DNA of 64,000 bases from Octopus vulgaris. Lineage: Eukaryota. Both the position numbers and the translations under genes were made by a program. The stretch's first letter is position 1. Each line of letters opens with the position of its first letter. This document shows, piece by piece, positions 33,819 through 39,680 of the stretch. The notes beneath the pieces were generated by a model. That model was not told the DNA's origin. It worked only from the letters and a program-made list of their open reading frames with translations, and made no database searches. Location of the stretch: positions 110,732,001-110,796,000 of the forward strand of contig OX597821.1 of the NCBI GenBank assembly GCA_951406725.2, read 5' to 3'.

Positions 33819-34767
33819 GATTAAGGGGACAAAAACGGAAAGAGAAAAACTGTGTAAGGATTAACGGCTCAACCTGATGAAATAGCCAGAGGCGTTGCAT
33901 TATACAAATATGAGTGTGTATATGTATGTGTGTAGGTATGTATGTTTGTGCGCATGTGTGATGCGTAAAAGATTGTCTAACACCTCGGTTTGAATAAATA
34001 TGGACAAAACCTACACCCTGTATTGAGTACCATTGTCCGATTTCGTTTAGGAACTGCAGCAGTAATTCGTTCGTAGCTGGTGGTTCTCCATCGCCGCCAA
34101 TTCGATTTTCTTCTCTGTACACGTTCGTTCAGACAGCCAATACGCGAACACTTCTCTTAGTGTACCGAATGAACGCATAAAAGCGAAAATAAATAGAGTA
34201 GCACCAGGTGAATTATCAAGATTTTACCGATGTACTTATAGCTGGAGTGATAAGAATTTTTTTTCGTTTCATTTTGGCGAGTTATGTCTCAATATTGTTG
34301 TAATAGACACTCTATTTTTTTTAACAAGAAACGTAACTTTACTTGCTTTGCCAAAACAACAACAACAATAAAAACAACAACAACAACAACAACAACAACA
34401 ACAACAACAATAATAATAATAATAATAATGAACTATTCGTGATTTCGAAATGGCTAACGTCACAACATAAAACACTGTTTTGGAATGAAGAACCAAGGAA
34501 ATATAGTGATATATATTGATACTATTATATATATATATGCTAACACATGTGGTTAAGAGCGCGGGCTACTAACCCCAATATACCGAGTTCGATTCCAGGC
34601 AGTGACCTGAATAATGATAATAATAATAATAATAATAATAATAATAATAATAATAATAATAATAATAATAATAATAATAATAATAATAATAATAATAATA
34701 ATAATAATAATAATAATAATAATAATAATAATAATAATAATAATAATAATAATAATAATAATAATAA

Positions 34768-37700
34768 ATCTAACACTGTACAAACATACTTAAACTGGAG
34801 ACAGAAACACCCTGAAGTAAGACCCTACATAGACAGTAACAAACTTGCCAACGTCAGAAGAAACATTATAAAAAAAAATTACTGACTGAAGTAGAGATTG
34901 ATCAAGTTAGACAAGCAATATCAGATAAAATGAACGAAGCTGCAGCTAGAGAAGATAATACAGAGGAAATAATTATAGACCAGCCCAGGGCTGATAAAAA
35001 CGAAGTAAGGATTGAAAGAGTTAGTATAAGTGATAGGCAAAGTGAAATACTCCCTGAACCAATCATAAACACTAAGACAGATGAACATCAAATAGATAAA
35101 GAAAGTCACACAAATATTGACCCAACAGAACTACATGAGCTAAAAAATCAAATCATGATTGAATGGCTGAAAATTAAAGAAACCAGCATGGATGAACACT
35201 CCCTAAAATCCGCAACTCTAACCAAAACATGAAAATAATTGGTAAAATCCGGCTTGCACTTAAGGATATAATTTCAGCTAATGATGTTGATATCACAAAT
35301 CTCAACCACCTATACTATGCATCCGCGAAAATCTCAACGATCCTATGTGGTGCAAAGATTAGAAAACGGCAACATTCCCACAAAAAGCCTTCTTGGCAAG
35401 AGCGTTTGCAACAACAAATTAAAGTATTTAGATCTGACATTGAATATTTGAAAAACCTTAAGGTTCATAAGACTACCAAACCTACAAAAACCCAAAAATT
35501 ACTGAAAAAATACAATATGAAAACTATACTTGATATTGATGCCACCATAGAAACCATCAAACAAAAGGTATCTGCCAAAGCTGCCCGCATAGTGAGGTAT
35601 GAAAAGCGTGTTTGATTTTTCAAGGACAACATATTCAAAAATAACCCCAAGTATTTTTACAGGAAGATAGGAAAAACAGCGTTTACTGCAAGGTCTGTAC
35701 CATCAAAAGAAGAAGTGCAGGGATTTTGGAATAAAATTTGGGCAGAAGAAAAAACACACAACGAAAAGGCCCCCTGGATTGACGGAATATCTACAGAACT
35801 GGACCCCTTAGAAGAGCAAAAGTGGGAGGGTGTCAAGGTTGAAGATATAAGATCTGCTCTCAGGAGGTCAAGCAAATGGAAGTCTCCAGGAAAGGATAAA
35901 ATTCCTATCTTCTGGCTGAATGCCTTCCCAGAGAGCCATGAACTGCTAACAGAACTGTACAATGATGTTTTGCAACACCCTAGTAGGATGCCTCCTTGGC
36001 TAGTTAATGGGTTAACATTCCTGCTTCCAAAAAGTGAAGAAACAAATGAACCAAAAAACTATAGACCCATATCCTGTTTAACAACTATGTATAAAACGCT
36101 AACATCTGTCCCGACGGAATATACTTATAGTTTTTTAACAGACAGCAGCATATTCCCTAATGAACAGAAAGGATGTAAACGTGGATCCTACGGCTGTAAA
36201 GATCAACTACTCATCAATAAGATGATCTTACAAGATTGTCACAAACGACACAAAAACTTATCAATAGCCTGGATAGACTATAAAAAGGCTTTTGATAGCC
36301 TACCACATAGCTGGATTAGGAAATGCCTGGAAATGTATAAGATAGCACCTACTCAGCGAAACCTTTTCACTGTAAGTATGAGATCATGGAGAACCACACT
36401 AACTCTGAACAGTGACAATGAATCCCTAAATGCTGGTGATGTAAAAATTTCGTGTGGCATTTTCCAGGATGACTCACTGTCACCACTCCTCTTTTGTTTA
36501 GCATTAATACCTCTCTCAAAACTGCTCAATTACGCGCAGTACGGGTATATAATGTTTGATAAAAATATAAATCATCTCATTTACATGGATGATTTAAAGA
36601 TTTTTGCAAAAAATGACCAACAACTCAAGGGCTTACAAGCGATAGTCAAACAATTCAGTGATGACATCAGAATGCAATTCGACCTCGATAAATGTGCAAA
36701 AGCTGCGTTTATCAATGGAAAAATGACAGAAACATCTAACGTTAACCTTGACCAGCAGAATGTCATAAAAGAACTAGACCCAGCGGAGAGCTACAAGTAC
36801 CTAGGGGTAATTGAAGGGAAGGAATAAGTCATTCAGAGATGAAGGAAAGGATCAGGAGAGAATGTTATCGAAGAGTGAGAGCAATACTCAAGACAGAGCT
36901 GAATGCAAGAAACAGGATCGAAGCGATCAATGCATTAGCCATACCAGTCGTGACTTACAGTTTCAATATCGTTAACTGGTCAATTACTGAAATATGTCAG
37001 CTCGACAGAAAAATAAGAAAACTGTTGACAATGCATAGAATGCACCACCCTAAGGCAGATACAGAACGACTTTATCTGCCAAGAAAAGAGGAAGGCCGTG
37101 GTCTTTAGCAACTGGCAATAACAATGAAGATTGCTACAATTGGCCTAGACACCTACCCGAAAAAGTCTGAGGACTGGATGTTAAAACTTGTCTCAAAACA
37201 TGAAAACAAGAAAGCATCATACTCAGTAACAAAACAGGCAAAGGAATATCTAAGTGAATTCCGAATACAACAAATTTCGGAATTAGAGATAGACATACAA
37301 GAAACAAGCACAGAAAAAACTAGGCGCATGAAAACCCGTGCCAAAACTGCGGCCTTAGATATTCTGAATAATAAATAGCAAGAAAAACCTCTCTATGGCA
37401 AATACCCAAAGAGAGCGAATAATGCAGATATTGACAAAGCCCTGACCCATCAATGGCTAATGGCCTCTGGCTTAAAATCTGAAACAGAAGGGTTTATCAT
37501 AGCAGCTCAAGATCAATGCCTACCAACAAGAAACTACCAGGCCAACATATTAAAGAACGGCAGTAGCCCAACATGTCGTGTATGCCGACAACAAAATTAA
37601 ACCATTGATCATGTCTCCAAATGCAGTTTTCTAGCGCCTACAGAGTATCTCAACAGGCATGATAGAGCTGCACAATATATTCACTGGGTAATTTGCAAAA

Positions 37701-38324
37701 ACCTGGATTTGCCCCATGAAAAAAACTGGTGGGAACACAATCCACCTCCAGTGCTTGAAAATGACCACATCTCACTCCTCTGGAACTTCACCATTCAAAC
37801 TGACAGAAAGATAGATGCAAATAGGCCAGATATCACATTGAAAGACTTCAGACAAAGAACATGCCTCCTCATTGATATGAATGTCCCAATCGATATAAAC
37901 GTATCTGTCAAGACCTACCAAAAACTCAGCAAATATAAAGATCTTGAAATAGAAATCAGCAAAATGTGGAAGCTGAAGACTAAAACAATACCTGTTGTCA
38001 TAGGTGCCCTGGGAATGATAGCGAAATGATTGCTACCTAACTCAGATACCAGGAAACCCCAAAATGGCAGAAATTCAAAAGATAGTGCTCATGGGAACTG
38101 CTCATATCCTACGCAAAATACTTTCTATGTAATCCCAAGGTTTGAAACAAACTTTTTTTTTAAATTTATGTATTAGACATTCACTAGTACAACACCCCAA
38201 AAAAAACCAAATATATGGCACACTAGGCATAACACAACGTGAACTTCCAACCTGTTGTCTCTTGAGGTCTCTGGGTGAGACTTGGAGTCAACTTGTACAG
38301 ACATAAAGCAAAAGTCAAACATAG
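34768..38324 (+). mobile_element. R4/Dong LINE (family A), long, with multiple stops and frameshifts
   Basis: RT motifs KNYRPI, AWIDYKKAFDSL, GIFQDDSLSPLLF, IYMDDLK; CCHC knuckle; RLE NRPDITL...LIDM...KLSKYKDL. Confidence 0.95.
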
Positions 38325-38542
38325 AATAATAATAATAATAACAACAACAATAATAATAATAATAATAATAATAATAATAATAATAACAATAATAATAATA
38401 ATAATAATAACAATAACAATAACAATAATAATAATAATAATAATAATAATAATAATAATAATAATAATAATAATAATAATAATAATAATAAGAAGAAGAA
38501 GAAGAAGAAGAAGAAGAAGAAGAAGAAGAAGAAGAAGAAGAA

Positions 38543-39128
38543 GAAGGAATATATTCACAGACATGACAGAGTTGGAACCTACATACATTGGAGGCTATGC
38601 CAACATTATGGAATAACAACAGAAAAAAGATGGTATAGGCACACACCAGAAAGGTCACAGAAAACGAGAAAGCAACCATACTCTGGGATATGCCGATACA
38701 CACAGATAGAGAAATTAAGGCCAACAGACCAGATATAGTTGTCAGAGATCATGAAGGAAAAAAATGCTTTCTAATTGATGTATCAATACCGGCAGATGAC
38801 AACGTGTCTCTAAAAGAAATGGAGAAACTCTCAAAATACAAAGACCTGGAAATAGAGGTAACTAGAATGTGGAACCTGAAAACAGAAACAATTCCTATCA
38901 TAGTAGGTGCATTAGGCATGATAAAAAAATATTCAGACAAATACATAACAAAAACACCAGGACTTACAAACACATATAACATACAGAAAATTGCACTACT
39001 AGGCACTGCACACATCCTACGCAGAACACTTTCCATACAATAACCATCAGAGCATCACAACAAATCACAGCACATACCCAAGGCACACAGAGCTGCGCTC
39101 GGTAGTGAAGTGAAGTGAAAACTACTGA
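38543..39128 (+). mobile_element. R4/Dong LINE 3' fragment (family B)
   Basis: ORF 38690-39043 encodes the RLE domain; closely matches 22525-23104. Confidence 0.95.
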
Positions 39129-39265
39129 ATAATAATAATAATAATAATAATAATAATAATAATAATAATAATAATAATAATAATAATAATAATAATAATA
39201 ATAATAATAATAACAACATCGAAAAATACCTTAGGAATGACAGCCGAGGTTCGAAATTTCCCCAA

Positions 39266-39311
39266 GACGCCTGATGAAGGCTGGAGGGTATATCAACCGA
39301 AACGTTGTGTT
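39266..39311 (+). ncRNA. Minimal type I hammerhead ribozyme
   Basis: gacgc-CTGATGA-a-ggctg...caacc-GAAAC-GTT-gtgtt; one stem II mismatch. Confidence 0.75.
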
Positions 39312-39680
39312 AACAACAAACAAGATGAGGACAGATATATGTCAAATGTAAATGATGTAAATAATGCTAACATAACGTTTTCAGGGCGATCTAAAATTTA
39401 CTTTCAATAATTTATATATATATATATAAATACTTAAATACAACAGAAACAATTGTCGGCTTTGTAAGGTGAATTCTGCAATCAAAGACGTGATTTTTTT
39501 CTACAAGAAAAATACTCTACGTAATTTTGGTTGCTTAATACTCAGGATTTGTTGTAGTTTTTCTAAATGATATTTAGATCTACTTATCATACATTAGGAA
39601 TTACCTTGGATGTGTATCCTACTTGCATTTATTGGTATCTAATTGTTGGGTGTAGTAAACTAAATTCGTTTACAACAATG

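What the first reader, a model, noticed from the sequence alone, without database searches (positions are those of the whole stretch)
34537..39372. Composite tRNA-head + (AAT)n + hammerhead SINE that acts as a landing pad for Dong LINEs
Seen: a tRNA-like head (34548-34610; the sister head at 26346 has A-box TGGCGTAGTGG and B-box GAGTTCGATT) runs into (AAT)n. 4.6 kb later (AAT)n resumes into a 150-bp tail holding a type I hammerhead (39266-39311). A 9-bp direct repeat atgctaaca brackets the whole unit, and two R4/Dong LINEs lie inside the AAT tract. The same head, tract and tail co-occur independently at 26035-26404. Known: Penelope-like elements carry minimal HHRs, Schistosoma Sm-alpha is a tRNA-related repeat with an HHR, and Dong targets TAA repeats. 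Inference: a Pol III-driven, self-cleaving SINE mobilised by a Penelope-type RT, which also spreads the target site of a second retrotransposon. I do not know of this architecture being described in cephalopods.
Basis: partly seen in the sequence, partly recalled or inferred. Interest (0 to 1): 0.9.

Follow-up and report, generated by a model that had tools for sequence, protein, structure and literature searches.

The report
Penelope retrotransposon with tRNA-like promoter
The repeat is not a separate SINE but the end repeat of an octopus Penelope-type retrotransposon, and it carries a tRNA-like segment that likely serves as the promoter, so that its short copies look like a SINE.

Summary
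The head-(AAT)n-hammerhead unit is real and abundant: 26 of 30 head-selected loci have the tail downstream. It is not an independent SINE. In 30 of 30 loci picked by a Penelope endonuclease C-terminus, the head follows the stop codon. The 'tail' is the hammerhead plus the first ~55 codons of that element's 835-codon RT/GIY-YIG ORF. So the unit is the pseudo-LTR of a decayed Penelope/Poseidon element. Penelope hallmarks are present: head-to-head pairs, 35 of 47 joining a short and a ~35-nt-longer end, with 22 of 35 bracketed by direct repeats of 8-15 bp. What seems new is a tRNA-like A/B-box segment in the pLTR of the autonomous element. Copy 5' ends stop sharply about 13 nt before the A-box, and the 2.8-kb unit has no TTTT run (5.4 expected). 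Both suggest RNA polymerase III transcription, which is untested. The sister copy is head-to-head, not collinear. Dong insertion is incidental: 2 of 83 arms hold Dong, and AAT tracts are everywhere.

The parts
34537..34545 (+). left copy of the 9-bp target-site duplication
   Evidence: The 9-mer occurs only here and at 39364 in the window. Family duplications are 8-15 bp.
34546..34609 (+). tRNA-like head of the Penelope pLTR, 5'-truncated (head positions 21-81, half of the A-box lost); B-box at 34585-34596
   Evidence: The head is most like this genome's tRNA-Arg genes among 35 distinct tRNA sequences retrieved (z 6.6-7.4).
34610..34767 (+). (AAT)n spacer of the pLTR, left part
   Evidence: The tract lies between head and tail in ORF-linked and solo copies.
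34768..38324 (+). decayed Dong/R4-like LINE (RT, CCHC, restriction-like endonuclease) inserted into the tract
   Evidence: PF00078 E=1e-24 for 35616-36827; motifs seen in translation. The clade name is recalled, not tested against Repbase.
38325..38546 (+). (AAT)n/(AAG)n between the two LINEs
38547..39127 (+). 5'-truncated second Dong/R4-like LINE (endonuclease end and 3' UTR)
   Evidence: 96% and 93% identical copies at 22525-23088 and 14547-15017; translation
39128..39213 (+). (AAT)n spacer, right part
39214..39366 (+). pLTR 'tail' = start of the Penelope ORF (ATG at 39237, frame open to the junction), ending at the family's short 3' end
   Evidence: The same peptide starts a natural 847-aa relative, P0008 (20 of 45 identical, E=1e-5).
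39266..39311 (+). minimal type I hammerhead motif: stem I 39266-70/39307-11, core 39271-77, extra A, stem II 39279-83/39294-98 (one pair broken in this copy), no loop III; predicted cut after 39306
   Evidence: Matches the min-HHR traits in PMC4209133. Activity untested.
39364..39372 (+). right copy of the target-site duplication (its ATG is shared with the element end)
26023..26339 (-). sister insertion, inverted arm: tail (26023-26176, short end) and tract, head lost
26340..26405 (+). sister insertion, forward arm: head from position 1, A-box 26353-26363, broken off in the B-box

Best explanation
The unit is the pseudo-LTR of a decayed Penelope/Poseidon retrotransposon (pLTR, one RT plus GIY-YIG ORF, pLTR), and its tRNA-like head likely acts as an RNA polymerase III promoter whose short transcripts were copied into tens of thousands of SINE-like solo repeats. 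Shown: the order stop codon, 23-nt linker, head, (AAT)n, hammerhead within the first codons of the ORF; tandem and head-to-head copies; two 3' end classes about 35 nt apart; 8-15-bp target duplications; a sharp 5' boundary at head position 1. Inferred: transcription starts at that boundary, 13 nt before the A-box. Inferred: the Penelope protein nicks both DNA strands 8-15 bp apart and starts reverse transcription internally at two sites in the tail, as shown in vitro for the anole element PAc. Any RNA carrying the pLTR would then be a template whatever its 3' end, and copying from the start site to those two sites would yield exactly the short unit, often as a short-plus-long inverted pair. 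Inferred: the head entered the 3' UTR as a tRNA-derived, AAT-tailed insertion. The hammerhead would cut only as a dimer and does not set the copy ends. The Dong LINEs arrived later, because they insert in AAT tracts of any origin.
For: - 30 of 30 loci chosen by the endonuclease end continue into the head, 29 of 30 into a tail. One of the 30 is the query's own locus.
- 10 of 10 loci chosen by the ORF start have tail sequence directly upstream. L248 reads head-AAT-tail-ORF; L243 is a true tandem.
- A majority sequence of 23 overlapping copies is one open 835-codon frame starting in the tail.
- The RT piece has 74 homologues at E<=1e-10, among them an 836-aa Anolis protein at 41%. It groups away from this genome's Neptune elements (quick tree).
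- 35 of 47 inverted pairs join a short and a long end. 22 of 35 have a direct repeat of 8 nt or more, against 19 of 1190 mismatched controls.
- 32 of 53 tail-selected arms start between -10 and +10 and only 3 run more than 50 nt into the ORF. Only 1 of 54 arms starting at -12..+10 keeps the ORF-side linker.
- No TTTT in the 2825-nt majority unit (5.4 expected, P=0.003) or in the ORF (3.0 expected, P=0.012).
- PAc mechanism: PMC11167929.
Against: - No direct evidence of Pol III use.
- In one RNA-seq run (X24, about 6% read) reads lie about equally in both directions and no start or end pile-up was listed.
- Rfam and ARAGORN do not score the head as tRNA.
- D. virilis Penelope has an internal promoter likened to TATA-less LINE promoters (PMC2377424 abstract), so a Pol II start could give the same 5' boundary.
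- A small hairpin at head positions 0-11 could itself promote fold-back there.
- The 3-of-53 figure is probably too low, because the search favours well-conserved tails. Depth steps at the head are only about 2-fold in raw reads and 4-7.5-fold in contigs.
- TTTT absence is weaker against Markov models trained on the ORF itself (P 0.09-0.14). GGGG is also absent, and one Neptune fragment has only 1.0 TTTT per kb.
- No intact single copy was found, and my Pfam scan of three broken pieces hit no relevant family.
Confidence: 0.72

Rival explanations
1. Ordinary Penelope element with a Pol II promoter in its pLTR. The tRNA-like piece is a passenger insertion, and the solo copies come from the normal start site or from fold-back at a small hairpin.
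For: Penelope has an internal promoter likened to LINE promoters. An uncapped Pol III RNA is a poor mRNA (established knowledge). The head lacks a tRNA fold. 14 of 54 boundary arms show a fold-back-type junction.
Against: The boundary sits 13 nt before the A-box, and A-box and B-box are 44 nt apart as in tRNA genes. Many arms start at position 0-2 joined to unrelated sequence. TTTT runs are depleted: 16 in 38,129 nt of natural copies against 88 expected, although these copies are not independent.
Confidence: 0.2
2. One reading: an independent tRNA-derived SINE lineage that borrowed a Penelope tail and spreads in trans.
For: Short copies greatly outnumber ORF-linked ones. Short copies show half the CpG decay: 16.7% against 32.5% in heads, 10.2% against 23.3% in tails.
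Against: Head, tract and tail are all part of the autonomous element. No diagnostic non-CpG differences were found, and non-CpG divergence is equal at 5-6%. The 9-nt repeat variant is not separated: 8 of 13 against 4 of 12 at the short spacing. The CpG gap may be search bias.
Confidence: 0.06
3. The unit is a retrozyme-like repeat amplified through hammerhead cleavage and circular RNA.
For: Type I hammerhead. One locus has six tandem tails (L173). Animal retrozymes are proposed to derive from pLTRs (bioRxiv 10.64898/2026.07.22.740005).
Against: Copies are dispersed monomers or inverted pairs. Their ends map 60-95 nt past the predicted cut. HHR mutants do not affect PAc insertion in vitro.
Confidence: 0.02

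Closest known systems
Penelope/Poseidon PLEs, e.g. PAc (Poseidon_Ac) of Anolis carolinensis (PMC11167929) and D. virilis Penelope (PMC2377424)
   Same: Single RT plus C-terminal GIY-YIG ORF of about 835 aa; pLTR made of 3' UTR, hammerhead and ORF start; tandem and inverted copies; 30-40-nt tail at one end.
   Different: A tRNA-like A/B-box segment and an (AAT)n tract sit in the pLTR just before the ORF start, and the sense strand lacks TTTT. No such promoter is mentioned in the passages I read. A distant Penelope locus (L250, 30% identical) has the same hammerhead type but no B-box match and 9.7 TTTT per kb.
TRIMp3 elements Cassandra, Helenus, Ajax (PMC10886601)
   Same: A small-RNA-derived Pol III promoter inside a terminal repeat, proposed to arise by SINE insertion.
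   Different: Those are non-autonomous LTR elements, and the paper expects their autonomous partners to use Pol II and not to share the repeat. Here the autonomous Penelope element itself carries the tRNA-like segment.
Schistosoma Sm-alpha SINE-like repeats with hammerhead (as reviewed in PMC6765202)
   Same: Apparent Pol III promoter together with a type I hammerhead in a short repeat.
   Different: Sm-alpha is described as tandem and released by self-cleavage. This unit has a minimal hammerhead, inverted pairs and a coding partner of the same sequence.
Animal non-LTR retrozymes (bioRxiv 10.64898/2026.07.22.740005) and non-autonomous Chlamys elements such as MRC1 (PMC8557442)
   Same: Short non-coding derivatives of pLTRs, moved by PLE proteins.
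   Different: Retrozymes are defined by tandem units. The preprint has no occurrence of 'tRNA', 'polymerase III' or 'promoter'.
Octopus SINEs OK, OR1, OR2 (Ohshima and Okada 1994)
   Same: tRNA-derived octopus repeats. That their lengths are similar and that OR1/OR2 are tRNA-Arg-derived is recalled, not checked.
   Different: The paper is not held. OR1 and OR2 are each cited as CORE-SINEs in later papers. Whether this unit is already catalogued under one of these names, or in Repbase or the 2026 O. vulgaris library, could not be tested.

Membership tests
Penelope-like element, Penelope/Poseidon clade | single ORF with RT and C-terminal GIY-YIG endonuclease | tested here: met
   Open 835-codon majority frame from 23 copies; 74 homologues. 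The endonuclease is read from motifs; my Pfam scan of 3 broken pieces found no relevant family.
Penelope-like element, Penelope/Poseidon clade | pLTR: the same repeat before and after the ORF (partial tandem) | tested here: met
   L156, L160, L241-L249; 30 of 30 endonuclease-end loci run into the head
Penelope-like element, Penelope/Poseidon clade | inverted 5'-truncated partner copy and 30-40-nt tail at one end | tested here: met
   47 of 78 tail- or head-selected loci have an inverted partner; 35 of 47 are short+long; bimodal 3' ends
Penelope-like element, Penelope/Poseidon clade | minimal type I hammerhead in the pLTR (extra base after A9, G10.1-C11.1, palindromic stem III) | tested here: met
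   against PMC4209133; core intact in 42 of 73 copies. No Rfam hit.
Penelope-like element, Penelope/Poseidon clade | no Neptune-type cysteine linker; groups apart from Neptune | tested here: met
   Linker absent by inspection but present in L091 and L095. Quick tree only, midpoint root, no curated clade references.
Penelope-like element, Penelope/Poseidon clade | hammerhead self-cleavage; RT and endonuclease activity | not testable with these tools
   needs in vitro assays
tRNA-derived SINE (SINE2) | tRNA-derived head with A- and B-boxes at the 5' end | tested here: met
   Boxes 44 nt apart; best match tRNA-Arg; sharp 5' boundary. Not called by Rfam or ARAGORN.
tRNA-derived SINE (SINE2) | separate non-autonomous family that shares only its 3' tail with the partner | tested here: not met
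   The whole unit is in the autonomous element; no diagnostic variants.
tRNA-derived SINE (SINE2) | LINE-type insertion ending in a poly(A) or simple-repeat tail | tested here: not met
   Ends are Penelope-type short/long pairs and the simple repeat is internal.
tRNA-derived SINE (SINE2) | transcription by RNA polymerase III | not testable with these tools
   Only indirect signs; RNA-seq lay uninformative.
Non-LTR retrozyme | tandem arrays with a hammerhead in each unit | tested here: not met
   Mostly dispersed or inverted; L173 is a six-tail array and L009 has two tails.
Dong/R4 LINE (the two inserts) | RT, CCHC finger and restriction-like endonuclease; inserted in (AAT)n | tested here: met
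Dong/R4 LINE (the two inserts) | phylogenetic placement in the R4 clade | not tested
   Name recalled from motifs; Dong-R4 is reported as recently active in O. vulgaris (PMC13282606).
Octopus OK/OR1/OR2 SINEs | sequence identity to the published consensus | not testable with these tools
   paper not held

The most novel reading that the evidence does not exclude
An autonomous, protein-coding retrotransposon transcribed end to end by RNA polymerase III. A Penelope element captured a tRNA-derived promoter in its terminal repeat and purged TTTT terminators from 2.8 kb of sense strand. Because its RT starts internally, every terminal repeat became a self-propagating SINE-like unit, showing a route to SINE birth from inside an autonomous element.
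Probability: 0.3. Interest if true: 0.85.

Novelty: new variant of a known kind. Interest (0 to 1): 0.63.

Why it matters
It reassigns an abundant octopus 'SINE-like' repeat (likely tens of thousands of insertions) to Penelope machinery, which affects repeat annotation in genomes said to be SINE-rich. It gives a large natural sample of Penelope integration products: strict short+long end pairing inside one target duplication fits two-strand nicking with two internal RT starts, so far shown in vitro for one element. If the tRNA-like head is the working promoter, this would be a Penelope counterpart of Cassandra/Helenus, but inside the autonomous element. It would also raise the question of how an uncapped Pol III transcript with a hammerhead in codons 10-24 is translated.

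Tried and rejected
- Rfam and ARAGORN gave no tRNA or hammerhead call.
- MFE folding does not give the hammerhead or a cloverleaf (z -1.8 to +0.9).
- First candidate partner: the intact 781-aa Neptune-type PLE found through PF01541. Rejected because it shares no tail sequence and ends in (TA)n.
- Covariation: of 10 stem pairs in 73 copies, only one pair shows double changes, in 2 copies. Divergence in the motif (5.3%) equals that of the rest of the tail (4.7%). Uninformative rather than refuting.
- Search for subfamily markers of short copies: only four CpG G>A sites at p<0.02.
- Tail peptide against longer proteins: 1 hit among 9 candidates, an O. sinensis gene model, not an RT.
- Sequencing-run search: no RNA holder listed.
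- RNA-seq lay: no start or end pile-ups at the head or at GUU.
- Metagenome scan gave 9 distant loci only, of which 6 were examined, so no close relative was available to control the TTTT test.
- The careful tree did not finish.
- The random sample stayed at 200 kb.
- Earlier-findings look-ups returned nothing.
- Nine paper searches listed no title or abstract opening about a tRNA-derived promoter in a PLE. Repbase, Dfam, subscription journals and all supplements were not seen, and any of these may already hold the family.
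Full report
OBSERVATION. The sister is not collinear: its tail is on the minus strand (26023-26176) and its head on the plus strand (26340-26405). The genome has 2.8 Gb in 227 contigs, and the tail peptide starts an Octopus sinensis gene model, so the host is an octopus.

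LINKAGE AND ABUNDANCE. Of 30 loci picked by the head, 26 have a collinear tail within 1.5 kb. The four misses are the window copy, one Dong-interrupted copy and two head+AAT copies. The tail peptide gave 38,090 first-look candidates. Twenty 10-kb stretches at round-number positions held 2 insertions, which extrapolates to roughly 28,000 with wide error. Copies differ by 5-6% at non-CpG sites.

END STRUCTURE. 3' ends are bimodal, near tail positions 150 and 185 (97 hits). Of 49 tail-selected loci 34, and of 29 head-selected loci 13, carry an inverted partner. Of these 47 pairs, 35 join one short and one long end, 2 are short-short, 1 is long-long and 9 involve another end. A direct repeat of 8-15 nt brackets 22 of the 35, against 19 of 1190 mismatched controls. 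An inverted 5'-truncated copy and a 30-40-bp tail at one end are the Penelope-like signature (PMC8557442, passages). In PAc the tail is the stretch between two internal RT start sites, both strands are cut and extended, and hammerhead mutants still insert (PMC11167929, parts 1-2 of 4 read).

THE PARTNER. The intact Neptune-type element in this genome does not share the tail. Locus L009 showed RT-thumb and GIY-YIG coding sequence running into the head. Of 30 loci picked by that endonuclease end (one is L009 itself), all 30 pass the stop codon and a 23-nt linker into the head, and 29 reach a tail. Of 10 loci picked by the ORF start, all 10 have tail sequence directly upstream. L248 reads head-AAT-tail-ORF and L243 is a tandem. 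A majority of 23 overlapping copies (out of 27 oriented) is one open frame of 835 codons that begins at the ATG in the tail; coverage of its first 200 nt was only 1-3 copies. A natural 847-aa relative begins with the same peptide. The RT piece has 74 homologues among 2285 candidates, including an 836-aa Anolis protein at 41%, and a quick tree of 26 rows separates them from the Neptune elements. The unit is therefore the pLTR of a Penelope/Poseidon element. All copies seen are broken; the longest open piece was about 290 codons.

THE HEAD. It has an A-box and a B-box 44 nt apart and is most like tRNA-Arg among 35 distinct tRNA sequences from 30 loci, an incomplete set. It does not score as a tRNA. 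Of 53 tail-selected arms that reach the head, 32 start at -10..+10, 18 start further inside, and 3 run more than 50 nt into the ORF. Among 54 arms starting at -12..+10, only 1 keeps the ORF-side linker, and many begin at position 0-2 joined to flank, inverted tail or inverted head. That point is 13 nt before the A-box, as expected of a Pol III start (established knowledge). The 3-of-53 figure is probably biased low, since ORF-linked copies have more CpG decay. Depth steps at the head are about 2-fold in raw RNA reads and 4-7.5-fold in contigs. Short and ORF-linked copies share no diagnostic non-CpG variants, so there is no sign of a separate SINE lineage.

TERMINATOR TEST (made after forming the Pol III idea). 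The ORF has 0 TTTT runs. Expected values are 3.0 from synonymous shuffles (P=0.012) and 3.5 with other elements' codon usage (P=0.02). The whole 2825-nt unit has 0 against 5.4 (P=0.003). Two Neptune and two Dong ORFs have 6-10 each. Against this: self-trained Markov models give P=0.09-0.14, GGGG is absent too, and one Neptune fragment has 1.0 per kb. The result is suggestive, not decisive.

HAMMERHEAD. It has 5-bp stems I and II, an extra A after the core, G10.1-C11.1 and no loop III, matching the minimal dimer-type motif (PMC4209133, passages). The core is intact in 42 of 73 copies and covariation is absent. It lies inside the ORF start, 60-95 nt before the copy ends.

DONG. Both inserts are RT/restriction-like-endonuclease LINE pieces that lie inside the target duplication, so they came later. 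Dong-like sequence was found in the tract of 2 of 83 arms. The random 200 kb has 37 AAT tracts, Dong-like pieces in 8 of 20 stretches, and 2 copies of this unit. The unit is one minor source of targets.

RNA. One RNA-seq run gave 9,898 reads, about equal in both directions, with no start or end pile-up. This fits passive transcription of many copies and decides nothing.

LITERATURE SEEN. PMC11167929 (parts 1-2 of 4); PMC13282606 (parts 1-2 of 3); bioRxiv 10.64898/2026.07.22.740005 (parts 1-2 of 5 and term passages); passages of PMC8557442, PMC4209133, PMC6765202, PMC10886601, PMC8967140, PMC4824008, PMC4758252 and PMC5804259; PMC2377424 (abstract and one section). Ohshima and Okada 1994 was not held. 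No supplements were read. Nine searches showed no listing about a tRNA-derived promoter in a PLE; curated repeat libraries could not be checked. The nearest concept is TRIMp3, whose autonomous partners are expected to use Pol II.

VERDICT. A new variant of a known kind. Membership in Penelope/Poseidon is near certain (about 0.95). A Pol III start at the head is likely (about 0.7). Pol III transcription of the whole coding element is possible (about 0.3).

Noticed in passing
L091-L094 and many places: Intact 781-aa Neptune-type PLE ORF in many near-identical copies, with an upstream ORF, a repetitive 3' UTR, a variant hammerhead-like motif and (TA)n at its end; looks recently active.
   Followed up: partly
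ORF-linked against short copies: CpG decay is twice as high in ORF-linked copies at equal non-CpG divergence. This may be differential methylation or search bias; unexplained.
   Followed up: partly
L242, L244, L241: The ORF start runs 235-263 nt and then jumps to the start of another head, as if RT switched from one RNA's 5' end onto a second RNA.
   Followed up: no
L026, L049, L057, L039: Short fold-back palindromes centred on a 2-nt loop at head positions 5-6, suggesting self-priming by the cDNA end.
   Followed up: partly
L173: Six tandem tails in a row, a retrozyme-like array.
   Followed up: no
P0002 (Octopus sinensis gene model): Begins with about 36 residues from this element's tail, fused to a TNF-receptor-like membrane protein; exonisation or a gene-model artefact.
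   Followed up: no
window 51890-55114: Long Dong/R4-like LINE with an 832-codon open stretch, between AAT tracts unrelated to the Penelope unit.
   Followed up: partly
window 14297-15271: A second cluster of the same two Dong-like families in an AAT tract, with no Penelope unit.
   Followed up: partly
window 48004-48852 and 15272-15645: Tandem arrays (4.6 and 2 copies, 184-188 bp) of an abundant SINE-like repeat also dispersed at 7584, 10548, 16938, 21191, 30897 and 42439.
   Followed up: no
window 12606-13313, 49956-50664, 55282-55647: Another AAT-associated repeat family, also found inserted in tracts of the Penelope unit (L003, L013, L020, L028).
   Followed up: no
L004: A different, pyrimidine-rich RT fragment that looks PLE-like abuts a tail copy.
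   Followed up: no
window 751-1167, 39681-40104, 50992-51387: A ~420-bp repeat with TTAGGG-like units at 851-880.
   Followed up: no
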